Below the pieces are notes generated by a model that was not told the origin of the DNA, did no database searches, and worked only from the letters and a program-made list of their open reading frames with translations. A stretch of DNA of 64,000 bases from an uncultured cyanobacterium. GTDB lineage: Bacteria > Cyanobacteriota > Cyanobacteriia > Pseudanabaenales > Pseudanabaenaceae. The stretch spans positions 2,112,001 to 2,176,000 of the forward strand of contig OY969811.1 of assembly GCA_963703315.1 (NCBI GenBank), written 5' to 3'. Shown here one piece after another: positions 49,140 through 62,500 of this stretch (position 1 is the first letter of the stretch; the number at the start of each line of letters is the position of its first letter). A program made the translations under genes and the position numbers.

Positions 49140-52100
49140 CTACCAAGGTAATCGCCCTTGATAGTGAGATCCCTGTCGCTCTTTTTCTATCTCTAAGCGT
49201 TGTTTCAGTAAAACATATATTTCTTGGGCTAAGGATTCAAGGTTTTTAGAGAAATTCTCTTCATCTTCATTTTCCTGCTCTTGTCTTGGTTGAACAGAGA
49301 CCGTTGCTTCTGGCAAATCACTATTTTGTGAATTACCATTTTCCGAACTGCGTTGGATTGCATTAGATATTGAATTGGATTTAGTCTGCACTACTTGATT
49401 AGGATTCCCTTTTTGTAAACCTGTTGGAGTTAAGTATAAGTCTTGATCATTATCACTATTTACATTGTTATTCACGTAACTAGGATCAGGCGATCGCTGA
49501 ATAGTTGTAGTACTGCTAGGTAAACTTGTGGATGAGGTTGAAGTAGAACTTGCTAAAGAACTGCGATCGCTAGAGTTTGTTTGTTGCTTATTTAAAGAGT
49601 TTGTGGAGGAATTACTAGAACTTGTAGGTGGTGGAAGATTAGCAAGAAGTTCTGAAATGTTTGACCATCCCATTGAGCCAGTTTCATTAAGATCAGAATT
49701 CTGCTCATGTTTAGTCTGAATTGTTGTAGGCAAGTTGTTGGACAGACTATTTGGACTAAGCTGATTGGAGCTAGACTTTGATAGCAATCGTTGTGAATTC
49801 GTGATAGGTGATTTAGAGGTTGTCAGTGATGAGAAATTACCTAAATATTCTGTTTGACCAAGATTTTGAATGACTGTGGGTAGTTTTAGCTCTTGGTCAT
49901 TACTGGTATCTGTCATCATCTGAATAATTTTTTGATCCTCATTGTCTGCTGTAGAAATTTTTTGAATCTGTTGAGTGATATCAACCTTTGCAACACTTTT
50001 ATTATAGTCAGTCTCAGATATTTTATCTGTCGAGATATTGCTCTCTGTGACAGGGCTATCTACAGCAATTTTAGTATTAATTAAATTATCATCTCTTTGG
50101 ATTTGTTGAGGATAATCGCTTTCTGTAACAGGATCATCTGAGTTACTTGAAGAAGTTGGAAGACTTTGAACTACTGATATATCTTGAGAAGTTTCGGAAT
50201 TAGAAAAATCATCTTTCCTTTGAATTTGTTGAGCTTGAATACTGTCTAAACTTTTTGAAGAAACCCTATCAGTAGAAGTTTCAGGATTTGGTGCTGCTGA
50301 ACTAGGAGTATCTAAAACTGAGTTGTCTAAAGAAATTTTAGGACTAGTTAAATTAGGGGATTTTTGAATCTTTTGAGTAGTATCTTCTTTTGTAACAGAG
50401 CTATCTGAAAAAGTTTTAGAATTATTTGTTTGGTTTCGTTGGGTGTAATCACTTCCTGAAATACCAGCATTATCAGAAATTGGTTCAGGACTATGAACTA
50501 ATAATGTCTCTTTAGAAATTTCTTGAGTTGATGTGTAATCACTTTCTAAAACAGGACTATCAACAAGAGATTCAGGACTAGTTAAATCAGAAGATCTTTG
50601 AATTTGTCGAGTAACATTGCTTTCTGAAATACTGCTATTAGCAAAATTTGTAGGGCTTGATATTGCTAAAGGATCACTCTCTAAAATAGGATTATCTACC
50701 GAAATTTCAGGATTGGTTAAATCAAATGCTCTTTGAACTTGTTGAGGGCGATCGCTTTCTGCAATATAAGCATCTAAAGTTTCGTTACTTGGAGATACTG
50801 AAGTAACAGTTTCTAAGTTATTGCTACCTAAATTAATTTCAGGAGTGATTAAGTCAGAAGTTCTCTGAATCTGTTGAGGGCGATCGCTTTCTGAAACAGT
50901 ATTATCAGAAGTGGTTTCAATACTCTGAACTAGTGAGGTATCCTTAGAGATTACAGGACTAGTAAAATCAGAAATTTTCTGGATTGATATGTCATCACTT
51001 TTTAAAACAGGACTATCAACAAGAGATTTAGCACTAGTTAAATCAGAGGATCTTTGGATTTTTTGAGTAACATCAGTTTCTGAAATACTGTTGTCAGCAA
51101 AATTTGTAGGACTTGGTATTACTGAAGTATCACTCTCTAAAATAGGATTATCTACCGAAATTTCAGGATTGGTTAAATTAAATGCTCTTTGAACTTGTTG
51201 AGGGCGATCGCTTTCTGCAATATAAGCATCTAAAGTTTCGTTACTTGGAGATACTGAAGTAACAGTTTCTAAGTTATTGCTACCTAAATTAATTTCAGGA
51301 GTGATTAAGTCAGAAGTTCTCTGAATCTTCTGTTGAGAGTGATCGCTTTCTGTAGCAGTGGTATCAGTGGAAGTTTTAAAAGTTAGGTTTGTCGAAGGAT
51401 TAATTTCTTCAACAGGACGAACCACAGAAATTTCAGGGTTAATTAAATTAGACGCTCTTTGAATTTTCTGAGCGCGATCTCTTTCAGAAATTTGGCTATC
51501 AACCAAAATCTTAGAACTAACCACATCAGAAGATTTCTGAATCTGTTCCCTTTGATCGCTTTTTAAAATATTGTTATCAGAGGAAGCTTCAGAACTTTGA
51601 ACTACTGATTTATTGCTATCTACAACAGAAATATCTACAGGAATATTAGGAAAGTCTAAATTAGAGCTTCTTTGAATCTGTTGGGGAAAACCGCTTTCTG
51701 AAATATGACTATCTGAAATATTTTCAGAACTTTGGACTGTTGAAATAGCAGTATCTGAAGCTAATATTTTTCTAGAAATTGTAGAGCTAATAACATCAGC
51801 ATTTCTTTGTATTTGCTGAGTTTGATTAACTTCTGGAACAATGCTATCTAAAGTCTCGTTACTTTGGGATAATGAATTAATAGTTTCTAAGTCATTACTA
51901 CCTAAAGTGATTTCAGGATTGCTTAAATCATCATTTCTCTGAATTTGGGGAGAGCGATCTCTTTCTGAAATGCCTCTCTTAGATAAGGTTTCAGAACTTT
52001 GAACTACTGATGTATCTCTAGAGTTTTCAGGACTATTGATGTCAGAGTCTCTTTGAATTTGTTGAGGTTGATTAACTTCTACGGCGGCACTATCTGTAAA

Positions 52101-55100
52101 ACTGGTAAAACTTGGAATTGGGGTAAGATTACTATCATCTTGTAAGATATTGATATTTAAGGAAGGCACATCTGATAGTTTTGGGATATCCTGAGTGAGA
52201 TTATTTTCTAAAATAGAATTATCTGAAGAACTTATGGGAATTCCTAAATCGGAGCTTCGCTGAACTCCTGAGAGAAGATATTCTCTTGGCGACGCAATAC
52301 TATCTATAGATGGCTTAGAACTAGTTAAGTCAGCAGTTTTTTGAATCGGTTGAGATTGAGTGTCTTGTGAAACAGTAATATCTGAAATAGGGCTATTCAA
52401 ATCAGAAATTATTGGTATTGACTGAGGGCGATCGCTTTCTGGAATATAAGCATCTAAAGTTTCGTTGCTTTGAGGTATTGAAGTGATATTTTCTAAGTCA
52501 TTACTATTGAAAGTAATTTCAGGAGTAATTAAGTCAGAAGCCCTCTGAATCTGTTGAAAGCGATCGTTTTTTGTAACAGCATTACCAGAAACAGTTTCAG
52601 GATTTTGGATTACTGAAGTATTGCTTTCTAAAATAGAACTATTTAGATTAATCTCAGGAGTGTTTAAATTAGAAGTTCTTTGAATTTGCTGAGGGCTATC
52701 ACTTTCTGTAACAGCATTACCAGAAAACATTTCAGGACTGTCAATAACTACTGGAGTACTGCTCTCTGAGATAGTGCTTTTTAGATTAATATCAGGAGTA
52801 ACTAAATCAGAATTTCTTTGAATTTGTTGAGGGTGATCGCTTTCTGCAACAACATCCGAGAATATCTCAGGACTTTGAAATAATGAAGTATCTGTAGAAC
52901 TTTCGGAATTAGAAAAATCATAGTCTCTCTGAATTTGTTGAGATTGATTGCTTTCTAGAAAACTTTTATTAGAAAAAGTTTCAGAACTTTGGACTACTGA
53001 ACTATCACTCTCTAAAATAGAACTATCTACAGGAATTTCAGAACTGGTTATATCATCGTTTCTTTGAACCTGCTGGAGATGACCACTTTCTAAAATAGTA
53101 TTAGTATTATTAGAGAAACTTTTAGAACCTTGAATTACTGATGGATCTCTAGAAGTTTGAGAACTAGTGAAATCCAAATTTCTTTGGATCTGTTGAGGGC
53201 GATCGCTTTCTGAAGGTTGACTATCAACCAAAATCGCAGGACTAGGTAAATCAGAAGAGTTCTGAATCTGTTGAATTTGATCACTTTCTAAAACATTTCG
53301 ATCAGAAAAAGCCTCAGAACTTTGAACTACTGATTCATTGCTATCTGCAACAGAACTACGAGAATCAGAAGATCTTTGAATGTGCTGAGAGGTATTTTCT
53401 TCTGTAACAAGGCTATCTGATGAAATTTCGGGACTAGTAAAATCAGAGGATTTTTGAATCTTTTGAGAGAGAGAGTTTTCTGAAGCAGCCTTATCAGTAA
53501 AGTTTTGAGAACTTTGTACTACTGATGTATCTTTAGAACTTACAAGATTGGCTAAATCTGAATTTCTTTGAATTGCTTGGGGTTGATCGCTTTCTAAAAC
53601 ATCATTATCAGCGAAGTTTTGAGAAATTTCTGGAGTGAGACTACTATCCTTGTGCAAGATATTGCTATCTAGGGGAGATCCATCTAGTTTTCTTTGAATA
53701 TCCTGAATGCGATCGCTTGCTAGAGAATTTTTGTTGATAGAAGTACTGGAGTTAACAGAATCATAGTCTTTTTGAATGTACTGAGTAGTACCTCCCTCTA
53801 CAATAGAACCATCTGATAAAGTTTCTGGACTAGGTAGATCAGATGCTAATTGAATTTGTTGAGTGTTACTACCCTCTAAAATAGAACTATCAGAAAAAAT
53901 CTCAGGACTTTGAAACAATGAAATATCTGTAGAACTTTCAGAATCAGAAAAATCAGCAACCCTCTGAATTCGTTGTGTGTTATTGCTTTCTGGGCAATTT
54001 CTATCAAAGGGATTTTCAGGATTGTGTATATCTGAAATGAGATCACTTTCTACAGGAATGTCTACAAAATTTTCTGAACTAATTAAATTAGTATTCCTTT
54101 GAATTGGCAGAGTTAAATCATTTTGTAAAGCAGCATTATCTCCAGAGGATAAATCAGGCATCCTTTGGATTTTTGATTTATCTTCTCTCGCTGAAACACT
54201 GTTATCAGAAAAATTGATAGGATTTGAGGATTCTAAATTATTATTCCCTAAAATAGGACAATCTAAAGAAATATTAGGAGTATTTAAGTCAGAAGCTCTT
54301 TGAATATGCTGAAAGCTCTCCTTTGCTTCTAAAACAGGACTATCTAGAGTATTTTCAGAACTTTGGGCTATTGAAATATCATTATCTGAAACTGATGTAT
54401 CTCTATGAATTTCAGGGTTAGCAAAAGTTGAGGTTTCTTGAACTGGTTGAGGGCGATCGCTTTCTATAACCCTATTATCAGAAACAGTTTCAGTATTTGG
54501 AACTAGTGAAGTATTGCTCTCTGAAGTAGAACTATTTGGATTGATTTCAAAAGTAAGGAAGTCAGAAGTTCTTTGAATGATTTGAGGGGGTTCTCCTTCT
54601 AGGATAGTATTACTAGAAATAGTTTCAGTATTTGAAGCTGGTAAAGTATTTTTGTCTGAAACAGAGTTGCTTAGATTTATTTCAGAACTTTTTTGGATTT
54701 GTTGATGGCAATCACTTTCTAGAGTATTTTCATCAAAGAATTTTTTAGGATTTTGAACTACTGGTGTATTTTTAGAAGCTTCAGGATTAATTAAATCAGA
54801 GATTTTTTGGATTTGTTGAAAGTCATTACTTCCTAAAATAGGGCTATCTGAAAAAGTTTCAAGATTTGAGGAGACCGATCTATCTAAAGAAATTTCAGGA
54901 TTTGTTGAATCAGAGCTTTTTTGAATTTGTGGATTGTGATCGATTTCTGAAGCAACGTTGTTGTCAGAGAAAGCCTCATGATTTTGAATTATTGACGTAT
55001 CTCTAGTAGTTTCAGGGGTAGCAAAATCAGGATTTCTTTGAACTTGCTGAAAGGCATTACTTTCTAAAACAGGGCTATCAGATAAAGTTTCAAGATTTGA

Positions 55101-55955
55101 GGAGACTGACCTATCTACAGAAATTTTAGGATCTGTCAAATCATCGGTTCTTTGAATTTTTTGTTGAGGGTGATCACTTCCTAAAGTAGCGTTCTCAGAG
55201 AAAATTTCATGATTTTGAATTACTGGTGTATTTCTGGTGGTTTCAGGGTTAGCAAAATCTGAAGTTCTTTGAATTTGTTGAGGGCGATCGCTTTCTGAAA
55301 TAGTGTTATAAGTTAAACTTTCAGGACTTTGAATTACTGATATATTTTTTGTAGTTTCAGGAATGATCAAATCAGATGTTCTTTGAATTTGTTGATCGCT
55401 ATCTAAGTTAGAGCTAGATGCAATTGGCGAATCATCAGATTCCTGAATAGATAAATTTTCGGATATATTAGCTGGTACATCTGATGTCAAATCATTTACT
55501 AGGGAAGGATTTGTAAGAGATTCTTGACTAGGTAATTCTAGAGAATTATTAATTTGTGGATTGTCTAGAACTTGCCGTTGAATTGATATAGATTGAGGAG
55601 GAGTATCTAGCGATCGCTGTAACTGTGAATTTGGTTGAGAAGATAGCTGCTGAGATTGAATATTAGGTTGACTTGATGCTTGCGGTATAGGTTCTAGATC
55701 GGATGAAGATTGAATCGGCTGATTGAAAAAAGGCAAGCTATCAAAGGAGTTATGCAAAGATCCTAAATCGCCACCAAATTCAATACTATCAGGATCGACT
55801 AACGAGATTGCCCCTAACGGATAAATAAATTTAGGTTGTAGAAATGACTGTCCCAGAGGCTGTGGTACAAGCAAAGGGGTGTAATTACCTAATGGAATTT
55901 CATCAGGTATACCATCGTTACTAGCATCAAAAGGAATTGCGGTATTTTCAGCCAT
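49140..55955 (-). CDS. 2271-aa Ser/Asp/Gln-rich repeat protein in the CIS operon (candidate tape-measure-like)
   Basis: Open frame with roughly 45-50 (I/V)Q(R/K) repeats; C-terminal LAQEIYVLLKQRLEIEKERQG motif; lies between the tube and tube-initiator genes. Confidence 0.8.
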   Translation of the reverse strand: MAENTAIPFDASNDGIPDEIPLGNYTPLLVPQPLGQSFLQPKFIYPLGAISLVDPDSIEFGGDLGSLHNSFDSLPFFNQPIQSSSDLEPIPQASSQPNIQSQQLSSQPNSQLQRSLDTPPQSISIQRQVLDNPQINNSLELPSQESLTNPSLVNDLTSDVPANISENLSIQESDDSPIASSSNLDSDQQIQRTSDLIIPETTKNISVIQSPESLTYNTISESDRPQQIQRTSDFANPETTRNTPVIQNHEIFSENATLGSDHPQQKIQRTDDLTDPKISVDRSVSSNLETLSDSPVLESNAFQQVQRNPDFATPETTRDTSIIQNHEAFSDNNVASEIDHNPQIQKSSDSTNPEISLDRSVSSNLETFSDSPILGSNDFQQIQKISDLINPEASKNTPVVQNPKKFFDENTLESDCHQQIQKSSEINLSNSVSDKNTLPASNTETISSNTILEGEPPQIIQRTSDFLTFEINPNSSTSESNTSLVPNTETVSDNRVIESDRPQPVQETSTFANPEIHRDTSVSDNDISIAQSSENTLDSPVLEAKESFQHIQRASDLNTPNISLDCPILGNNNLESSNPINFSDNSVSAREDKSKIQRMPDLSSGDNAALQNDLTLPIQRNTNLISSENFVDIPVESDLISDIHNPENPFDRNCPESNNTQRIQRVADFSDSESSTDISLFQSPEIFSDSSILEGSNTQQIQLASDLPSPETLSDGSIVEGGTTQYIQKDYDSVNSSTSINKNSLASDRIQDIQRKLDGSPLDSNILHKDSSLTPEISQNFADNDVLESDQPQAIQRNSDLANLVSSKDTSVVQSSQNFTDKAASENSLSQKIQKSSDFTSPEISSDSLVTEENTSQHIQRSSDSRSSVADSNESVVQSSEAFSDRNVLESDQIQQIQNSSDLPSPAILVDSQPSESDRPQQIQRNLDFTSSQTSRDPSVIQGSKSFSNNTNTILESGHLQQVQRNDDITSSEIPVDSSILESDSSVVQSSETFSNKSFLESNQSQQIQRDYDFSNSESSTDTSLFQSPEIFSDVVAESDHPQQIQRNSDLVTPDINLKSTISESSTPVVIDSPEMFSGNAVTESDSPQQIQRTSNLNTPEINLNSSILESNTSVIQNPETVSGNAVTKNDRFQQIQRASDLITPEITFNSNDLENITSIPQSNETLDAYIPESDRPQSIPIISDLNSPISDITVSQDTQSQPIQKTADLTSSKPSIDSIASPREYLLSGVQRSSDLGIPISSSDNSILENNLTQDIPKLSDVPSLNINILQDDSNLTPIPSFTSFTDSAAVEVNQPQQIQRDSDINSPENSRDTSVVQSSETLSKRGISERDRSPQIQRNDDLSNPEITLGSNDLETINSLSQSNETLDSIVPEVNQTQQIQRNADVISSTISRKILASDTAISTVQSSENISDSHISESGFPQQIQRSSNLDFPNIPVDISVVDSNKSVVQSSEASSDNNILKSDQREQIQKSSDVVSSKILVDSQISERDRAQKIQRASNLINPEISVVRPVEEINPSTNLTFKTSTDTTATESDHSQQKIQRTSDLITPEINLGSNNLETVTSVSPSNETLDAYIAESDRPQQVQRAFNLTNPEISVDNPILESDTSVIPSPTNFADNSISETDVTQKIQRSSDLTSAKSLVDSPVLKSDDISIQKISDFTSPVISKDTSLVQSIETTSDNTVSESDRPQQIQRTSDLITPEINLGSNNLETVTSVSPSNETLDAYIAESDRPQQVQRAFDLTNPEISVDNPILESDPLAISSPTNFANSSISESNVTRQIQRSSDLTSPESLVDSPVLESDYTSTQEISKETLLVHSPEPISDNAGISGSDYTQRNQTNNSKTFSDSSVTKEDTTQKIQKSPNLTSPKISLDNSVLDTPSSAAPNPETSTDRVSSKSLDSIQAQQIQRKDDFSNSETSQDISVVQSLPTSSSNSDDPVTESDYPQQIQRDDNLINTKIAVDSPVTESNISTDKISETDYNKSVAKVDITQQIQKISTADNEDQKIIQMMTDTSNDQELKLPTVIQNLGQTEYLGNFSSLTTSKSPITNSQRLLSKSSSNQLSPNSLSNNLPTTIQTKHEQNSDLNETGSMGWSNISELLANLPPPTSSSNSSTNSLNKQQTNSSDRSSLASSTSTSSTSLPSSTTTIQRSPDPSYVNNNVNSDNDQDLYLTPTGLQKGNPNQVVQTKSNSISNAIQRSSENGNSQNSDLPEATVSVQPRQEQENEDEENFSKNLESLAQEIYVLLKQRLEIEKERQGSHYQGRLPW

Positions 55956-55958
55956 GTT

Positions 55959-56465
55959 TTAAGAACTAGGGAAAGAACCATTATTTGCATCTCGCGCTAC
56001 CACAGAAGCAACACCACCACCCGTTGTCGCTACCGTCAAGCCTTCAATCGCTAAAGTTAACTCTTCGATCGCCACAGCATTACCATCAGCTTGTAAGGAT
56101 GGCGCTTGCCAACTGACAGGAATTGCACCAATCAAAGTCCAGCATTGTCTAGTTTCACCCGCTTGATTAAATAGCAAAATCCGAATATTCCGTCGTCGCG
56201 ATGTAGTTGCTGTAAACCAACTCCAAAAGCTGAGGTCATCAGTTACGCCACGTTTAAGCTTTACCTCCGAAAAAGATGCATGACCTAAGAGAATCTTCTG
56301 TTGGTTATTATTACCACCCTCAAAATAGGTTTCGTAGTTTACTTTGGCACTCAACCCAGCACATTCTGTAAAACAAGCCACAATCGTTGAATCAGGAGTC
56401 ATTTCCACATAGAAGTGATTAGTGGTGACGTAGGACTCAGCCCTAGCAAATCCGCTACTGGTCAT
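55959..56465 (-). CDS. Phage tail tube (T4 gp19-like) protein, Afp5-like
   Basis: F.EC.GL, EGG.N, V.LKRG.T, W...GA.P..W..P.L.A.GNAVAIEEL.L. Confidence 0.92.
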   Translation of the reverse strand: MTSSGFARAESYVTTNHFYVEMTPDSTIVACFTECAGLSAKVNYETYFEGGNNNQQKILLGHASFSEVKLKRGVTDDLSFWSWFTATTSRRRNIRILLFNQAGETRQCWTLIGAIPVSWQAPSLQADGNAVAIEELTLAIEGLTVATTGGGVASVVARDANNGSFPSS

Positions 56466-56638
56466 AACCTACCCTCATAATTTCTGCCAGTGCGTTCTTT
56501 TTGCTGTCGCAGATCATCGGCAAGCAATTCATAGACCCGATCGCTAAGTAATCTCATCTGTAAAGGTTCCTGAAGAATTTTGGCAGCAAACTTGGCTAGT
56601 TCTGCCTTTGCCTTTAGTTCATCAGAATGCTTTACCAT
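56462..56638 (-). CDS. Small 58-aa CIS-associated protein (absent from the ORF track)
   Basis: Manual translation MVKHSDELKAKAELAKFAAKILQEPLQMRLLSDRVYELLADDLRQQKERTGRNYEGRL*; its TGA overlaps the tube ATG (ATGA). Confidence 0.8.
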   Translation of the reverse strand: MVKHSDELKAKAELAKFAAKILQEPLQMRLLSDRVYELLADDLRQQKERTGRNYEGRL

Positions 56639-56871: not shown

Positions 56872-59268
56872 CTATTTGATCGGGAACTTCAAAGGAATTA
56901 ATCCCGTTTGTTTCAATAAATTCTGGGCTTCCTCGGTTCTCATGATTGCCACAAAACGCTCAGCGATCGGTACGCGCCGATTGTCGCGGGTATAGACGAC
57001 GGAAATCGGATAGGCAAGGGGATAGGTTTGATTAATAAAAGCTGTGTAGTTTTGGATATAGCTACCTTTTTCATTACAGAGATCGATATCAGGGGCGATC
57101 GCCTTTCCTGTTTTAAAAACTAACGGTGGGACAAATGATTTGTAATCATCGGCAAGAGTCAAGGGATAAACTGAGCATTGTCCAAAAACTTGACTGATGG
57201 AGCCGAAGGAAATACTACCAATATTGCGATCTTCAAAATCTTGAATTACTTGTCGTAAGGAATCAAAAACTGATAAGGATGAGATTCCATTACTGCCTTC
57301 CTGTTGCAATTGTCGAAAAGCAGCGATCGCCGCTTCATCCTTGAGAACTCGATTTTCAAAGATTTTGATGGACTCACTATCTAGAGGTATATAGAGCTTG
57401 ACAGGTAAATTAGGTCCCCCTAACTGTCGCCAATTGATAATTTCGCCTGTGTAGAGTTGGCGCAATTGGGCAAAGGTAAGTCTGCCTTGGAGGGCTGTCG
57501 GTAAGCTGTTATTACGTTGGGCATAACTAAAAGCCACAAATACCGTTAAGCCATCGTAGGCAATATCTTGAGTAATGAAATTGCCACCTCGATTATTAAT
57601 TACGCTAGAGATGGCAAAGTCGGCTTGGTTGGATTGCAACTGGGAGATCGTTGACTGATCATTGCTGATAGGTTGATAGCTAAGCTGAAGTTTTGGTTGA
57701 CGTTTTTGTAGTTCATCTTCAAGGGTTGCACCTTTAGCAATCAAATTATTTTGGAGAAGTGTGTAATTCCAAGTGCCATTCTTCTCTGATGTATAGGTAA
57801 ACTTACCTTCGGGAATATCCGATATTTGGTTAATGCAGCAGGGGAAGTTCAAATTAGCCGCTTTGGGCGGTTGGGTTAACCAGAAATATAACAAGAAAGC
57901 TAGTAAAACTAAGAGAATGACTGCAATAGCGATCGCAATTACTTTCTTGGTGATCCAACTCCACCAAGTTTTTTTCTGTTCAAATCCTACTGCTTTTTGA
58001 TCAACGAATTCAATAATTGCTTCACGATCAATATGGATACGGAGTAAAGCTCGACGGGCTACTTCGGCACTACTATAACTAGTCTCACCAAACCCAATCA
58101 AGTTCTGAATAAACTTTCGCAAACCAGCATTAGTTTGGATTCCCCAATGGTTAATTTCGTGGGGATTTAGACAAGTCCGATTTTCTAAATCAATCACACC
58201 ACCTTGTAATAGATAGAACGCGATATAGCCCAAATCTTCAAGATCGCGATTGATGGAATACGTTGGCGCTTGGGTGTCTGGTGTATAAAATCGATCTTCC
58301 CAAAGTGCCATATCACTAAGATAAATCGTAAATCCTTGGAAATTCGATCTAATGGCAATGCTATAAAAAGTCAAGTTGCCGTGAGGTAAGCCTGATGTAA
58401 CTACACCAGAGCGTAGTCTGTACTTTTGAGAGTGCAAGGATTCAAGAGTCTGTAAAGCTTGATTGAGAAATGACTTGACTTGCCAGCTATTCATCGCTCC
58501 ATTAATTGCGAGATAGTCAGCTAAAGCGATCGCCTGATCACTTTGAGGAAGAATTACATAACATCGTTCTTCGCGACTATCAGCGATCGCCTCAATTGGC
58601 GTTACTAACCGTGAGTCTTGGACTCTACCATCCGATAGTTTTAGCTCTGCGGAAGCTTCAAAATTGCGTTGACAAGCTCTAGTTTCCTGTTCATTAAAAT
58701 ATTTTTTAGGAATGACATATTCCTTCAGTAAAAACGATTCTCCATCCGATAGGTTAGTGGCGTTATAAAGTCTGCCACTGCCACGAATACCAATGTAATT
58801 ATCTACTTGATAAACTCCTTTTCTTCCACGCAACTTTACTTCAGAAGGTAAACTGGCTGGGAACTGACATTTTTTACAATATTTATTATTGGGATCGTCG
58901 ATAACGGTTTCATGGGGATATTCACACCGAAAAGGGTTGGATTCTTGACATTTATAACGCAAAAATTGCGGCTTAATTTGCCAGATCGTCCCCACTCGCG
59001 ACTCAATGGCAATTTCTTTTAAAACCTCCTTAGTCTCTAGCTTTTCAGGAAGACCAATACCTTTAAAGGAAGTAATTGAAGGAGGCTCAATCCCTAAGTC
59101 ATCCCGCAAAAATGGAATCAGAAACCGTAAAGGTGCAGGAACGTTTTTGTTTAAAAATTCAACAAAACGATTACCAATGAGACCATCGATCGCTCCAAGA
59201 AACTGACTCCAAACTTCGGTAATGCGTTTCCATAGTTTTTGCCAGACATTCGGAGCTTTACTTGCCAT
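56872..59268 (-). CDS. Cys-cluster / Ser-Thr kinase-like domain / TM / PstS-like substrate-binding domain fusion
   Basis: C-x6-C and CKKC; G.RGSGRLY, LLKEY, HGNL, DL..LG; TM at IAIAIAVILLVLLAFLLYFW; IAYDGL.VFV, LRQLYTGEI.NW..LGGP, YPL..PI.VVY. Confidence 0.85.
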   Translation of the reverse strand: MASKAPNVWQKLWKRITEVWSQFLGAIDGLIGNRFVEFLNKNVPAPLRFLIPFLRDDLGIEPPSITSFKGIGLPEKLETKEVLKEIAIESRVGTIWQIKPQFLRYKCQESNPFRCEYPHETVIDDPNNKYCKKCQFPASLPSEVKLRGRKGVYQVDNYIGIRGSGRLYNATNLSDGESFLLKEYVIPKKYFNEQETRACQRNFEASAELKLSDGRVQDSRLVTPIEAIADSREERCYVILPQSDQAIALADYLAINGAMNSWQVKSFLNQALQTLESLHSQKYRLRSGVVTSGLPHGNLTFYSIAIRSNFQGFTIYLSDMALWEDRFYTPDTQAPTYSINRDLEDLGYIAFYLLQGGVIDLENRTCLNPHEINHWGIQTNAGLRKFIQNLIGFGETSYSSAEVARRALLRIHIDREAIIEFVDQKAVGFEQKKTWWSWITKKVIAIAIAVILLVLLAFLLYFWLTQPPKAANLNFPCCINQISDIPEGKFTYTSEKNGTWNYTLLQNNLIAKGATLEDELQKRQPKLQLSYQPISNDQSTISQLQSNQADFAISSVINNRGGNFITQDIAYDGLTVFVAFSYAQRNNSLPTALQGRLTFAQLRQLYTGEIINWRQLGGPNLPVKLYIPLDSESIKIFENRVLKDEAAIAAFRQLQQEGSNGISSLSVFDSLRQVIQDFEDRNIGSISFGSISQVFGQCSVYPLTLADDYKSFVPPLVFKTGKAIAPDIDLCNEKGSYIQNYTAFINQTYPLAYPISVVYTRDNRRVPIAERFVAIMRTEEAQNLLKQTGLIPLKFPIK

Positions 59269-59334
59269 AAATTGCTTGCCTTATTCCCTGTTGCTATAGA
59301 CTATTATCACTAATGTTACAATGTTTGGGATAAG

Positions 59335-59397
59335 ATTTGTAAAATAACTGTTTCAGCCATATTCTTCTCAACAATAAATCATAAAATCAGCGATCGC
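59335..59397 (-). repeat. Array repeat copy R1 (truncated)
   Basis: atttgtaaaataactgtttcagccatatt; minus strand reads MAETVILQI; HIP1 at 59390-59397. Confidence 0.8.
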
Positions 59398-59417
59398 CTT
59401 ACTATTTGATACTTCTG

Positions 59418-59718
59418 CTAGAGGTGAAGTATTAACTTATCGTATTCTGCATGGGAGTCTATCCAAAACCAGATAACTGTATCTTTATCCAATTGTCCGA
59501 CAGCACGATAGTTTTTGCTAATACGCACTGAATAGATTGGTAGTTCTGAATGTATTTTTTTAAATCGTAAGCTGGGATGACTTGGATCTTCTTTAAAATG
59601 AATTATTCCATTGAATTTCATCTTCGAGTTCTTCTAAAATTATCATGGCGATCGCGTCTTGTTGCTCGACAGATAATGTTTTTAGTTTGGTAATTGTGCG
59701 ATCGAGTAACTCTGTCAT
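59418..59718 (-). pseudogene. Collapsed toxin-antitoxin pair: antitoxin 5' part (59593-59718) joined to RelE/ParE-like toxin 3' part (59418-59600)
   Basis: MTELLDRTITKLKTLSVEQQDAIAMIILEELEDEIQWNNSF* abuts FKEDPSHPSLRFKKIH...YSVRISKNYRAVG...WFWIDSHAEYDKL in another frame. Confidence 0.75.
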
Positions 59719-59768
59719 GGTTTCTATGTTCTTTAGTGAGAGTTAGTTATTACTGTATTTTAACTTTT

Positions 59769-59865
59769 ATCGCTAAGCATTGGTACAATCCTTCTGGTAT
59801 TTGCAAAACAACTGCTTCAACCATATTGTTAATAGAATCGCTAAATTTTTATATCTAGCGATCAC
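59769..59865 (-). repeat. Array repeat copy R2
   Basis: atcgctaagcattggtacaatccttctggtatttgcaaaacaactgcttcaaccatatt; minus strand reads MVEAVVLQIPEGLYQCLA. Confidence 0.85.
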
Positions 59866-59876
59866 ACGAAAACATA

Positions 59877-60950
59877 TTAATCCTGTTCTGATGAAGGTAA
59901 TCGCTGACGTGCCGATGCGATCGCTTGTTGGAGTTTTGCTTGAAGCAATTCTTTGGGTGGTAATACGGTGAGATATTCGGCGACATGGATACCGCTTTTG
60001 TCTAGTTCAAGTAATTCAATTTGTTCTTGTTTTTTACCTGCACATAAAATGATGCCCAATGGTGATTGTTCATCACTCTCTTGGTCATATTTGGCAAGCC
60101 AACGTAAATAAAGTTCCATTTGGCTTTTGTATTCATGGCGAAAGTTACCTAGTTTGAGGTCGATCGCTACTAGTCGTTTGAGTTTGCGGTTATAGAACAG
60201 CAGATCAATATAAAAGTCATCGTTATCGATTTGGATGCGTTTTTGTCGTGCGATAAAGGTGAATCCTGCACCAAGTTCTAATAAAAATTTCTCGATGTCC
60301 CGTAAGATAGCATCTTCGAGGTCTTTTTCGAGATAGCGATCGCTTATATCTAAAAAGTCTAGGATATAGGGATCTTTAAGCAGTAAATCAGGGGATATTT
60401 GCTTGTTTTGGCGAAGTTGTTCTAAATCGTGGCGAATAGTTTCTTCGGGCTTGCGTGAAATTGCAGTGCGCTCGAAAAGCATGGAGTTGATGCGTTCTTG
60501 CAGTTGGCGAGATGACCAGCCCTCTAAGCAGCAGATTTCGATGTAGAAGTTTCGTTTTAGTGGATCATCAAAGTACATGAGGGTCTTGATGTGTGTCCAG
60601 CTTAATTGTCTCCGCAGTGCAGAGACAATTTGCTCGTCAGGGAAAGTCTCTGCAAAATGAAGGCAATGTCTGAGTTGTTTTTCGCTCCAGCCTTTGCCGT
60701 AAGTTTGTGTAAGTTTTTGAGATAGGGTTGCAATAATTTGTTTGCCATATTCGGCACGTTGACCTTGCAGTATTTCGGTTTGAATGCGATCGCCGACTTG
60801 CCAATAGAGTAGAGTAATTTCGGCATTGATGGCAACGGCAGCGCGTTGTTTGGCGGCATCAATAAGCTGACGAATTTCGCTAAAGAGTGTTTGCGGTGTT
60901 TCTTGGATATTTGGAGTAATTTGTGGCGGGTTGCGATCAGCTTCGTTCAT
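59877..60950 (-). CDS. YhcG/DUF1016 family PDDEXK nuclease-domain protein
   Basis: YW.VG..I, RAEYGK, LSWTH, KDPYILDFL, LELG.GF.F..RQ, IDLLFY, IDLKLG.F, GIILC. Confidence 0.92.
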   Translation of the reverse strand: MNEADRNPPQITPNIQETPQTLFSEIRQLIDAAKQRAAVAINAEITLLYWQVGDRIQTEILQGQRAEYGKQIIATLSQKLTQTYGKGWSEKQLRHCLHFAETFPDEQIVSALRRQLSWTHIKTLMYFDDPLKRNFYIEICCLEGWSSRQLQERINSMLFERTAISRKPEETIRHDLEQLRQNKQISPDLLLKDPYILDFLDISDRYLEKDLEDAILRDIEKFLLELGAGFTFIARQKRIQIDNDDFYIDLLFYNRKLKRLVAIDLKLGNFRHEYKSQMELYLRWLAKYDQESDEQSPLGIILCAGKKQEQIELLELDKSGIHVAEYLTVLPPKELLQAKLQQAIASARQRLPSSEQD

Positions 60951-60982
60951 AGGATTTCTCTATTTTGAGAATAAGTATTAAG

Positions 60983-61060
60983 GCGATCGCTAAGCGTTGG
61001 TATAAATGCTTCTAGTATTTATAAAACAACGGTTTCAGCCATTTTTTGTAAATAGCATTG
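60983..61060 (-). repeat. Array repeat copy R3
   Basis: gcgatcgctaagcgttggtataaatgcttctagtatttataaaacaacggtttcagccat; minus strand reads MAETVVL*. Confidence 0.85.
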
Positions 61061-61063
61061 AAT

Positions 61064-61402
61064 TTAATTTCCGCTAATTTCTACTAATGATTCACCTGTA
61101 GCCAGAATTTCTAATGCTCTAGGTAAAGTAGCAGTTAGAATCTCTTTTAATTGGGCATTGGAAGTATTGCCAAACGTCAACCAAATAATTTGCGGTGGCG
61201 ATCCGAGCCGTTCAACTAGATCGACAAAATCACTATCTTTGGTCATGAAAATAATTTGCTGAGCTTTACCTGCTTCAAATATTTCTGGATCTTCTGCATC
61301 TCTTAAACCCAGATCTCGTAAAGCGAAGGCGCTTATGTTAAAGGTTCTAGAGATCCAAGGGGCGATCGCTGGTGATAAATGGGCATCAATCCAGATTGTC
61401 AT
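61064..61402 (-). CDS. DUF5615 PIN-like toxin
   Basis: IWIDAHLSP, GLRDAEDPEIF, MTKDSDF, PPQIIWL..GN.SN. Confidence 0.88.
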   Translation of the reverse strand: MTIWIDAHLSPAIAPWISRTFNISAFALRDLGLRDAEDPEIFEAGKAQQIIFMTKDSDFVDLVERLGSPPQIIWLTFGNTSNAQLKEILTATLPRALEILATGESLVEISGN

Positions 61403-61623
61403 GCGACTAATACGGGATGATTGAGTTTACGCGATGCATAGGCTAGTGCTGCTTTTAGGTCATCTCTTTCTAGATCGGGCATTTCTTCTAAAATCTCTTC
61501 GGCACTTAGTCCAGCTACAAACAAATCGAGAACATCTGAGACGCGAATTCTCATGCCACGAATGCAGGGACGACCGCCACATTGTCTGGGGTTGATAGTG
61601 ATTCTTCTAAGTAGTTCTGGCAT
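61399..61623 (-). CDS. DUF433 family antitoxin
   Basis: RITINP..CGGRPCIRGMRIRV, EEILEE.PDLE.DD..AAL.YA; ATGA overlap with the toxin. Confidence 0.92.
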   Translation of the reverse strand: MPELLRRITINPRQCGGRPCIRGMRIRVSDVLDLFVAGLSAEEILEEMPDLERDDLKAALAYASRKLNHPVLVA

Positions 61624-61674
61624 TTGAGTAGTTTCCTAACACTTTTCTCTAGTATAAATGGGTTGTATGGTAGT

Positions 61675-61758
61675 GCATCGCTAGGCGTTGGTACAATGCT
61701 TCTGGTATTTGCAAAACAACTGTTTCAGCCATATTTTTTCAATAGGTTAAATCATCTT
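61675..61758 (-). repeat. Array repeat copy R4 (best preserved)
   Basis: gcatcgctaggcgttggtacaatgcttctggtatttgcaaaacaactgtttcagccatatt; minus strand reads MAETVVLQIPEALYQRLA. Confidence 0.85.
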
Positions 61759-61811
61759 TATTTTATAGTCTATAATCCTAGATGATGTTGATTTTGAGGC
61801 TGAGTACTAAT

Positions 61812-62018
61812 ATGGCTGTAGCTAAAAAAGTTAGTCAAGAAAAAACAAGTAGTACTAGTAAGAAATCTGCTGGTGTTAAAAATTCTTCTCGGAAAAAGAA
61901 CTTAAGCCGTAAAGAGAAGTTGGAGTTGATTAGAAAAGCTAATCAGCTTCTGGAAAATGTTTGGGATAAGATTTACGATTCTCACCATCAGACTACGGAT
62001 GCCAAAATTAACCTTTGA
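61812..62018 (+). CDS. Small basic protein, putative antitoxin of the downstream PIN toxin
   Basis: 68-aa Lys/Ser-rich ORF overlapping the PIN gene start; TATAAT at 61771-61776. Confidence 0.6.
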   Translation: MAVAKKVSQEKTSSTSKKSAGVKNSSRKKNLSRKEKLELIRKANQLLENVWDKIYDSHHQTTDAKINL

Positions 62019-62442
62019 CACCAATATTTTTATCACGCATAAGCGGATCAAACTTCCTGAAAGTTTCTATATGTCGGTGGTTGTACTTCAGGAATTAGTT
62101 GCTGGGGCGGATGATGATGCAACTGTAAAAAAGCTTTTGAACATCAAAAAGTTTTACGAAAAGGTTGATAGGTTGCTTGTTCCTAATGCTGAGGATTGGT
62201 GGCTTGCGGGTAAGGTGATTAATTCTTTGCAGCGTGGGCTAAAGTCTGAGAGGGGTGGGCTTGCGCCTAAAATGACTGCGGATCAAAAGCATCGAATTAG
62301 TCATGATGTTTTGATTGCTCGGACAGCAAAACGGGCTGGGGTAACTGTAATTACGGACAATATCAAGGATTTCGAGGCAATTCAGAAGTTTTGTAATGTG
62401 CGTTTGATGAGTAGTGGTGAGTATTTTGAGAATAAGTATTAG
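61999..62442 (+). CDS. PIN-domain (VapC-like) ribonuclease toxin
   Basis: FDTNIFI, S.VV.QEL..GA, D.LIA.TA, VIT.N.KDF; start taken at ATG 61999. Confidence 0.88.
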   Translation: MPKLTFDTNIFITHKRIKLPESFYMSVVVLQELVAGADDDATVKKLLNIKKFYEKVDRLLVPNAEDWWLAGKVINSLQRGLKSERGGLAPKMTADQKHRISHDVLIARTAKRAGVTVITDNIKDFEAIQKFCNVRLMSSGEYFENKY

Positions 62443-62454
62443 GGAACTTAGAAG

Positions 62455-62500
62455 GCGGTCACTACTAGGTGTTGGTAGAATATTTCTGACATTTAAAACA
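62455..62500 (-). repeat. Array repeat copy R5 (degenerate)
   Basis: gcggtcac-ta-ctaggtgttggtagaatatttctgacatttaaaaca aligns with R4. Confidence 0.65.

What the first reader, a model, noticed from the sequence alone, without database searches (positions are those of the whole stretch)
59320..62500. Toxin-antitoxin/nuclease cassette array punctuated by a repeated, HIP1-bounded gene-start fragment: candidate cassette-capture system
Seen: five same-orientation copies of a ~60-90 bp unit (R1 59335, R2 59769, R3 60983, R4 61675, R5 62455) alternate with unrelated cassettes. In order these are a collapsed RelE-type TA pair, a DUF1016 nuclease, DUF433/DUF5615, and a basic protein plus PIN toxin in the opposite orientation. 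On the minus strand the unit is an ATG plus about 17 codons (MAETVVLQIPEALYQRLA). In R2-R5 it stops at a HIP1 or decayed HIP1 (ATCGC 59769, GCGATCGC 60983, GCATCGC 61675, GCGGTCAC 62455). R1 and R2 also have HIP1-like sites on the other side (59390, 59858). The copies show graded decay (nonsense codon in R3, heavy divergence in R5). Established: the peptide pattern (beta strand, then P-E-x-L-Y-x-R-L) resembles the N-terminus of ribbon-helix-helix antitoxin-like proteins; HIP1 has been proposed to promote recombination; integron arrays accumulate TA cassettes. Inference: cassettes were added one after another at a HIP1 site inside this gene start, regenerating the unit each time. That would be an integron-like array with no attC structure and no integrase in view.
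Basis: partly seen in the sequence, partly recalled or inferred. Interest (0 to 1): 0.85.

Follow-up and report, generated by a model that had tools for sequence, protein, structure and literature searches.

The report
Two-armed shuffling arrays around defence genes
Short repeats, one of them the clipped start of a gene, separate toxin-antitoxin modules that sit in different orders on either side of a swappable anti-phage gene across one cyanobacterial genus, likely reshuffled by ordinary recombination rather than by an integrase.

Summary
The repeat is real (R2-R4 clear, R1 partial, R5 a weak 34-bp remnant). It is the first 56-85 bp of a 135-aa antitoxin-like gene, whole in relatives but not in this genome. 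It occurs in 20 of 24 same-genus (Pseudanabaena) genomes and 0 of 16 others. Of 134 copies, 90 end at one of the gene's two 5' HIP1 sites, and fixed-length cassettes recur in different orders. The array is one arm of an 8.9-kb island. A second, non-coding HIP1-rich repeat (V) punctuates the opposite arm, and in 45 of 46 loci with both, V and U arms face outward from a variable, often anti-phage, centre. R1 ends in an IS701-like terminal repeat at the island's insertion point (empty site in 13 of 16 relatives). Best reading: HIP1 likely makes new joints and homologous recombination at the repeats likely shuffles modules. The scan noted similar HIP1-jointed arrays elsewhere in this genome.

The parts
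56872..59268 (-). Kinase-like/PBP gene; chromosomal flank, outside the island
   Evidence: Pfam PBP_like_2; in relatives its upstream region abuts the far flank
59305..59308 (.). TATC, one copy of a 4-bp target duplication (other copy beyond the window, genome C1 2180243-2180246)
   Evidence: the IS701/MITE family gives a 4-bp duplication in 6 of 21 elements
59309..59319 (+). 11-bp IS701-type terminal repeat; left end of the 8,934-bp island
   Evidence: matches the first 11 bases of the family's terminal repeat; this 11-mer occurs 16 times in the genome
59335..59372 (-). R1: truncated unit (about 26 bp from the ATG at 59360)
   Evidence: E 6e-7
59418..59718 (-). Collapsed antitoxin (41 aa) plus ParE-like toxin (67 aa); 72 and 88 aa in L216
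   Evidence: PF24732
59769..59836 (-). R2, ends GCGAT; its upstream side runs to a HIP1-like joint at 59858
59877..60950 (-). DUF1016/YhcG PD-(D/E)XK nuclease cassette
   Evidence: PF17761, PF06250
60961..60980 (+). 20-bp stub of the PIN gene's 3' end, left in front of DUF1016
   Evidence: same sequence as 62422-62441
60983..61055 (-). R3, intact HIP1 at 60983, TAA at codon 8
   Evidence: homology of five other loci stops at 60983
61064..61623 (-). DUF433 + DUF5615 pair; 690-692 bp unit-to-unit in six loci
61677..61745 (-). R4, best copy (53/56), ends GCGAT
61746..61810 (.). Shared upstream segment (class U0), carried with the unit in 19 copies
61782..62442 (+). Basic protein + PIN/VapC-like toxin, reversed in the arm
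   Evidence: PF01850, NF047959 below cut-off
62455..62498 (-). R5, 3' remnant of the unit
   Evidence: E=0.16; synteny with L038 and L039
62514..64000 (+). Central cargo: 112-aa ORF and 566-aa TPR-HNH protein, which runs past the window end to genome C1 2176588. Beyond it lies the V arm (genome C1): V at 2177002-2177034, 2178569-2178602 and 2180066-2180122; duplicated DUF433 gene; IS1; IS701 3' stub ending 2178693; a 205-aa ORF; MazF/MazE; 16-bp IS701 terminal repeat at 2180227-2180242
   Evidence: PADLOC HNH E 1e-15

Best explanation
The repeat is the clipped 5' end of an antitoxin-like gene that separates toxin-antitoxin modules in one arm of a two-armed defence island, and the modules are likely reshuffled by homologous recombination inside the repeats, with HIP1 likely serving as the favoured point at which new modules are first joined. 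Shown: the identity of the stub, its ends at HIP1, the reassortment of flanks, the V-centre-U layout and the empty site. Inferred steps: (1) in this genus the gene carries two HIP1 sites at +52 and +75, and recombination there joined its start to unrelated modules, each joint arising once or a few times; (2) once several joints existed, the 60-110 bp repeats (U in one arm, V in the other) let islands exchange modules and whole arms by host recombination, between chromosome copies or with DNA taken up by transformation; (3) because U pairs only with U and V only with V, the outward-facing layout is kept while order and centre change; (4) in this genome an IS701 element made the insertion site, either by moving the island between its ends or by leaving a MITE whose interior the island replaced.
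For: Stub of a 135-aa gene, 27 of 134 copies full or nearly full length. Right ends: 61 at HIP1 #1, 29 at HIP1 #2, 12 at +93 to +114, 5 elsewhere. The loci from other genera (L171-L196 except L180; 25 loci) lack the +52 HIP1 and show no stub within 1.5 kb. 100 distinct upstream-downstream pairings and 16 pairs of upstream classes that share two or more downstream classes, which needs recombination. Reversed orders: XisH/XisI vs truncated DUF433 in L045 and L121; DUF1016 vs RelE in G000 and L046. Unit identity is 0.881 with the same upstream and 0.884 with the same downstream flank, against 0.845 background. L067 and L153 look like left/right chimeras of two lineage types. 42 of 101 homology ends in the array fall in units that cover 12% of it. 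45 of 46 loci have all V upstream of all U, and 83 of 83 V are on the opposite strand; 11 of 11 further loci with both agree, some overlapping earlier ones. 32 of 49 central proteins hit PADLOC, 21 at E<=1e-20. Flanks of two other islands are unlinked in the other genomes listed, as arm exchange predicts. G000 has no IntI, no resolvase and a ComEC gene. A homologous HIP1 raises integration in Synechococcus 7002 (10.1101/2024.09.10.611283; abstract and Discussion read).
Against: No recombination event or circle was observed; only assembled contigs were available, and the near-identical run X1 showed the same order with no listed joint inside the array. 60-bp repeats at 85-95% identity are short for RecA (own knowledge). 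The left edge of the unit is also fairly sharp (27 of 50 upstream classes join within -15 to +1 of the ATG) and mostly lacks HIP1, which this model explains only by A-tract microhomology and selection to keep the gene's start. The SNP linkage is weak and mixed with copy age; the two chimera markers on the right also occur in the main lineage. 48 of 101 homology ends lie outside units and HIP1 sites. Most loci were selected for carrying U; among 20 V-selected loci only 7 had U, 9 had none in 5 kb or more, and 4 were cut by contig ends. Related genomes are not independent events.
Confidence: 0.6

Rival explanations
1. A dedicated, trans-acting recombinase or HIP1-recognising nuclease uses U and V as attachment sites, excises cassette circles and inserts them at the HIP1 of another unit.
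For: Sharp right ends at HIP1; fairly sharp left edge; strict arm polarity; in one lineage the unit is a HIP1-to-HIP1 module with 52-56/56 identity between adjacent copies (L033, L105, L158); V is built of 17-33 bp HIP1-to-HIP1 tiles too short for RecA; the two HIP1 sites of the full gene form an 11-bp inverted repeat (z -2.7 and -3.4); HIP1-linked site-specific recombination is cited in PMC4390886 (passages read). A roughly 510-aa tyrosine recombinase is present in G000.
Against: Only 33 of 61 stubs keep GCGATCGC, and decayed joints still reassort; no polarity; R4 has no significant fold (z 0.3 and 0.7); no recombinase was seen among the central proteins scanned or the 64 near-unit ORFs annotated; the 510-aa recombinase lies 0.4 Mb away and a similar hit occurs in a genome without U (G006).
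Confidence: 0.2
2. The stubs are passive scars. The antitoxin-HNH pair inserted repeatedly in TA hot spots and was then deleted from its first HIP1 onward, so the arrays are decay products that spread as blocks and are not reshuffled at the repeat.
For: Other stubs litter the island (PIN 3' end, IS701 3' end, truncated DUF5615); cassettes often occur without U; HIP1-promoted excision is cited in PMC4390886.
Against: Fixed-length cassettes in reversed orders and 16 four-way reassortments; strict two-arm polarity; the third HIP1 of the gene (+326) yields no truncation among 134 copies.
Confidence: 0.12
3. The islands are non-autonomous IS701 transposons, and transposition accounts for the arrays.
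For: G000's island has terminal repeats, a 4-bp duplication and an empty site; the terminal motif is in 46 of 48 genus genomes; L057 shares the V-IS701 stub joint.
Against: Among the other loci scanned (about 1.06 Mb, plus 20 more loci), the motif was found only in separate MITE-sized pairs or single ends away from the arms and as one 11-mer inside an island centre; G000 lacks a full transposase of this type; transposition does not explain the internal order.
Confidence: 0.08

Closest known systems
PeSL-mediated modular shuffling in T4-type phages (Arbiol et al. 2010, PMC2839356; abstract and passages read)
   Same: Short repeats border accessory modules, crossovers fall inside the repeat, and no integrase was identified.
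   Different: PeSLs are promoter-terminator cassettes in phages with demonstrated mini-circles. Here the repeats are a gene-start stub and a HIP1-tiled spacer on a chromosome, in two diverging arms around a defence gene; circles are untested.
Integrons and CALIN arrays (Cury et al. 2016, PMC4889954; passages read)
   Same: Array of accessory cassettes, each ending in a repeated site; integrase may be absent.
   Different: No attC motif or hairpin, no IntI in G000, no polarity, two arms, and cassettes also occur without the repeat.
dif modules of Acinetobacter (PMC6449649, abstract read; PMC13141974, search listing only)
   Same: Genus-restricted shuffling of small modules between repeated short sites.
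   Different: pdif sites are Xer sites with two binding arms (arm layout recalled). U is a coding stub without dyad symmetry.
HIP1-associated recombination (PMC4390886 passages; 10.1101/2024.09.10.611283 abstract and Discussion; PMC5861425 passages; PMC13756078 abstract)
   Same: HIP1 is linked to recombination and promotes homology-dependent integration.
   Different: The parts I read concern plasmids, constructs or statistics, not natural cassette arrays.
IS701-family elements and their MITEs (NCBIfam NF049921)
   Same: The island ends carry this family's terminal repeat and a duplication of the family's length.
   Different: Seen at this island only; the left repeat is 11 of 16 bp and no transposase is inside.

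Membership tests
Integron / CALIN | IntI integrase at the array or in the genome | tested here: not met
   TIGR02249 over cut-off in 23 of 48 genus genomes, not in G000 (best 32 bits); no U hit and only two marginal V hits (11-12 bits) in 10 intI loci
Integron / CALIN | attC sites (RYYYAAC...GTTRRRY, bottom-strand hairpin) | tested here: not met
   No motif pair 40-150 bp apart in the 9-kb island; one well-folding pair found in the integron control loci. R4 fold z 0.3 and 0.7. IntegronFinder's covariance model was not available.
Integron / CALIN | Polarised acquisition at one end | tested here: not met
   First (n=36) vs last (n=37) copies, identity to reference, p=0.26
Integron / CALIN | Excised circular cassettes | not testable with these tools
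   Only assembled contigs could be laid
PeSL-type repeat-mediated shuffling | Short repeats at module borders, modules in differing orders | tested here: met
PeSL-type repeat-mediated shuffling | Crossovers inside the repeat, chimeric repeats | tested here: inconclusive
   Symmetric weak linkage; two apparent chimeras
PeSL-type repeat-mediated shuffling | Repeat is a promoter plus terminator | tested here: not met
   U is coding sequence and R4 lacks a significant hairpin; promoter or terminator activity of V was not tested
PeSL-type repeat-mediated shuffling | Mini-circles | not testable with these tools
   needs inverse PCR or raw long reads
dif/pdif modules | Xer-type site with two inverted binding arms | tested here: not met
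   No inverted repeat within a copy among the 25 longest listed and no significant fold of R4; no dif profile was run
IS701-derived non-autonomous transposon (this island) | Terminal inverted repeats at both ends | tested here: inconclusive
   Right end 16 of 16, left end 11 of 16
IS701-derived non-autonomous transposon (this island) | Target duplication and empty site | tested here: met
   TATC on both sides; empty site in 13 of 16 loci fetched; family duplications 4 bp in 6, 5 bp in 9, 6 bp in 2, unclear in 4 of 21
IS701-derived non-autonomous transposon (this island) | Cognate transposase in the genome | tested here: not met
   Only a 34-codon stub inside the island; other hits about 27% identical
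Type II TA with ribbon-helix-helix antitoxin (parent gene) | RHH N-terminus | tested here: inconclusive
   PF22513 in 9 of 76 homologues, best E 0.0017, query 15 bits against a cut-off of 27; two Atlas neighbour clusters carry it in 16% and 22% of members; model has helices 11-24 and 28-38 but no strand; no PDB match
Type II TA with ribbon-helix-helix antitoxin (parent gene) | Directly upstream of a toxin-type gene | tested here: met
   Followed by an HNH gene in 10 of the 41 loci mapped
Type II TA with ribbon-helix-helix antitoxin (parent gene) | Neutralises the HNH protein | not testable with these tools
   needs co-expression

The most novel reading that the evidence does not exclude
Pseudanabaena has an undescribed gene-capture element: two outward-facing attachment repeats (one recruited from a gene start, one built of HIP1 tiles) bracket a slot into which whole anti-phage systems (CBASS, Lamassu, DRT, Argonaute, retron, GmrSD, R-M) are loaded, and a host HIP1-recognising activity, not an element-encoded integrase, performs the joins. 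This would give HIP1 a direct role in assembling defence islands.
Probability: 0.25. Interest if true: 0.88.

Novelty: new variant of a known kind. Interest (0 to 1): 0.68.

Why it matters
HIP1 has no settled function (PMC13756078 abstract; PMC5861425 start of abstract and passages). These islands give a natural substrate with mapped joints: 134 copies of one repeat, 90 ending at HIP1, in a genus with public genomes, so the roles of HIP1, its methylation and RecA can be tested directly. The layout also gives a search rule for new defence genes: the centre between V and U held 55 protein clusters in 45 loci, and 17 of the 49 scanned had no PADLOC match. My paper searches listed no description of this layout; that library lacks most subscription journals.

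Tried and rejected
Integron: no IntI in G000, no attC motif. Serine recombinase: none in G000. Tyrosine recombinases of G000 lie at 1.75 and 4.37 Mb, away from both islands. Xer/dif-like reading of the island ends: dropped when the motif proved to be an IS701 terminal repeat. IS701 as the general mechanism: ends not found at other arrays. Hairpin in the unit: not significant. Age gradient: none. Full-length parent gene in G000: not found with this query. Stubs in other genera: none within 1.5 kb in 25 loci, and no clear stub series in 151 class genomes by protein search, which is weak for 20-aa pieces. V outside the genus: marginal hits in 3 of 186 other genomes and one 2-mismatch hit in a sister genus. 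Empty sites for the L052 and L216 islands: not found; their flanks are unlinked in the rows listed. Population variation: contigs only; X1 colinear and broken at the repeats; joints seen in X3 and X6 come from other strains at 88% likeness and were not used as evidence. The sequence that follows the insertion point in one X3 contig was not identified. Fold search of the parent protein: no match at E<=0.001. Elhai et al. 2008 (PMC2527708) is not held; I saw it only as cited in PMC4390886 and PMC5861425. No supplements were opened. No complex prediction was run.
Full report
Observation. The window is G000:C1:2112001-2176000, in a 4.57-Mb genome with 8,189 HIP1 sites. Four copies are clear on the minus strand, with ATG at 61732, 61042, 59824 and 59360. 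A profile built from copies in other genomes scores them at E 6e-22 to 6e-7, finds a sixth partial copy at 4018439, and gives R5 only E=0.16 over 62465-62498. R5 is accepted on synteny with L038 and L039. Only R3 ends in an intact HIP1, and identity does not fall in order along the array.

What the unit is. Relatives carry the whole gene: 135 aa, followed by an HNH gene in 10 of 41 loci mapped. It is widespread in cyanobacteria (60 of 151 class genomes at E<=0.05) but was not found whole in G000. Its ribbon-helix-helix assignment is weak: PF22513 below cut-off for the query and seen in 9 of 76 homologues, a model with two short N-terminal helices, no PDB match. The antitoxin role is inferred from position. 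In this genus the gene has HIP1 at +52, +75 and +326; the 25 loci from other genera lack the +52 site and show no stub within 1.5 kb. The DNA unit was found in 20 of 24 same-genus genomes and 0 of 16 others; the named records matching it are Pseudanabaena or unclassified cyanobacteria.

How the copies end. From 133 loci I collected 134 distinct copies. 61 end at HIP1 #1, 29 at HIP1 #2, 12 at +93 to +114, 27 are full or nearly full, and 5 end elsewhere; none ends at the third HIP1. The patterns required sequence up to the first HIP1, so shorter stubs are under-counted. Only 33 of the 61 keep GCGATCGC. The left edge is broader: 27 of 50 upstream classes join within -15 to +1 of the ATG, the rest between -70 and +28.

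Shuffling. The copies fall into 52 upstream and 42 downstream classes, giving 100 distinct pairings and 16 four-way reassortments. Cassettes have fixed lengths (690-692 bp for DUF433/DUF5615 in six loci, 881-884 bp for XisH/XisI in four) and occur in reversed orders (L045 vs L121; G000 vs L046). In the G000 array, 42 of 101 homology ends lie in units covering 12% of it, 11 at other HIP1-like sites (6% of it) and 48 elsewhere. The system is loose: DUF433/DUF5615 has a unit after it in 17 of 30 copies, before it in 11 of 27, and on neither side in 12.

Where the crossover lies. If cassettes carried their own unit and crossed at HIP1, unit variants would follow the upstream flank. They follow both flanks equally and weakly (0.881 and 0.884 against 0.845; 106 copies, after setting aside 26 from one homogeneous lineage and 2 incomplete ones). 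The DUF433 joint, usually with a decayed HIP1, pairs with 12 upstream classes. L067 and L153 look like chimeras with the switch inside the unit, although the markers are not exclusive. First and last copies of arrays do not differ (p=0.26). These results fit homologous exchange inside the repeat better than ordered insertion at HIP1.

The larger structure. Searching with the two flanks showed the array to be part of an 8,934-bp island, from window 59309 to genome 2180242. 13 of 16 relatives' loci fetched show the empty site. The far arm, beyond the window end, is punctuated by a second repeat, V, apparently non-coding and made of HIP1-to-HIP1 tiles, ending at a HIP1 followed by diverse sequence. 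In G000 both repeats are confined to two islands. In 45 of 46 loci with both, every V lies upstream of every U, and all 83 V are on the opposite strand; the exception has a neighbouring island. The centre is 0.8-4.1 kb and held 55 protein clusters. Of 49 scanned (six TA-type or arm clusters left out), 32 hit PADLOC and 21 at E<=1e-20, including CBASS, Lamassu, DRT, Argonaute, retron, GmrSD-type, AbiTii and type II R-M. These loci were chosen for U. Of 20 chosen for V, 7 had U in the expected place (two already seen), 9 had none in at least 5 kb and 4 were cut short, so the U arm is optional. For two other islands the left and right flanks were unlinked in the other genomes listed, which fits arm exchange between islands but also general rearrangement.

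The ends of this island. The right end is a complete 16-bp terminal repeat and the left end, inside R1, its first 11 bp, with TATC on both sides. The repeat belongs to a 1.1-kb IS701 element (NF049921, 349 bits, cut-off 250) whose duplications are 4 bp in 6 of 21 cases. G000 holds only a 34-codon stub of this transposase, inside the island. Other arrays lack such ends. So IS701 explains this insertion site, not the arrays. Whether it moved the island or left a MITE that the island replaced is open.

Enzymes. G000 has no IntI (23 of 48 genus genomes do), no attC motif in the island, no resolvase, two distant tyrosine-recombinase-like genes and a ComEC gene. Run X1, near-identical to G000, shows the same order in contigs that break at the repeats; circles could not be tested.

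Mechanism. Most likely (0.6), HIP1 seeds joints and host homologous recombination at U and V reassorts them; every step of this is inferred. A dedicated HIP1-directed activity (0.2) is kept open by the sharp ends, the strict polarity and the very short V tiles. Passive decay (0.12) and IS701 transposition as the general cause (0.08) fit worse.

Comparison. It works most like PeSL-mediated shuffling in T4-type phages (PMC2839356, abstract and passages) and looks like a CALIN (PMC4889954, passages) but fails the attC, IntI and polarity tests. HIP1's link to recombination is from PMC4390886 (passages) and 10.1101/2024.09.10.611283 (abstract, Discussion). PMC4963859 (passages) describes clustering of TA and defence genes in Synechocystis without such repeats in the passages seen. 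Searches listed no paper on this layout. Earlier notes of this scan describe HIP1-jointed cassette arrays elsewhere in this genome; they are not independent support, I did not check their loci, and my reading was set before I saw them. They prompted the IntI and attC tests. Sequence look-ups for U and V found nothing. The gene-start hub, the two-arm layout with a defence slot, and the IS701 ends are what this locus adds.

Verdict. Real, genus-wide and more structured than first reported; a new variant of repeat-mediated module shuffling, with an untested mechanism. Interest 0.68.

Noticed in passing
G000:C1:4014000-4021500 (L001 3400-10450): Second island of the same layout: three V copies, AbiTii plus a 370-aa gene in the centre, a partial unit, then XisH/XisI interrupted by a 530-aa transposase-like gene (IS1634-like by recalled resemblance).
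   Followed up: partly
L002 8568-9419: DUF433 gene duplicated in tandem (382 bp, 97%), each copy followed by the same 74-bp tail; an IS1 sits in the second tail.
   Followed up: partly
G000:C1:2026940-2027090; L257-L276: IS701-derived MITE of about 166 bp; up to 134 terminal motifs in one genome (G172). In G000 it contains a REP-like G-rich repeat.
   Followed up: partly
window 59309; run X3 contig: A related strain continues with different, unidentified sequence at the same insertion point, so the site may be a hot spot.
   Followed up: partly
L035, L037 (centre): 749-aa Argonaute-like (PprPIWI, E 2e-88) gene as the central cargo.
   Followed up: no
L033, L060, L093 (centre): UG36-type reverse transcriptase with a DEDDh exonuclease, the same cargo beside different neighbours.
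   Followed up: no
L040, L066, L034, L111, L047, L048 (centres): Central genes of 233-646 aa with no PADLOC match and no Pfam match over cut-off; candidate new defence genes.
   Followed up: no
L310 (G041:C88): V arm with four V copies in tandem about 60 bp apart, and an HNH gene behind a 139-aa ORF inside the V arm.
   Followed up: no
L333, L336, L337, L339, L347: The DUF433/DUF5615 cassette starts at nearly the same HIP1-like point but is joined to a different short upstream repeat: a possible third hub.
   Followed up: no
L036, minus strand 650-1960: Unit plus 157 bp of downstream sequence duplicated around a two-gene (129 aa and HEPN) pair, as a single crossover would leave.
   Followed up: partly
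G000:C1:1754114-1755637: 507-aa protein with two tyrosine-recombinase domains beside PIN-like, ParA-like and MazF-like genes; similar-sized hits occur in many genus genomes.
   Followed up: partly
window 49140-56638: 2271-aa low-complexity repeat protein and a gene that looks like a tail-tube protein (recalled resemblance, not searched), suggesting a contractile injection system locus.
   Followed up: no
23 of 48 genus genomes: Integron integrases are common in the genus; the 10 loci fetched hold no U.
   Followed up: partly
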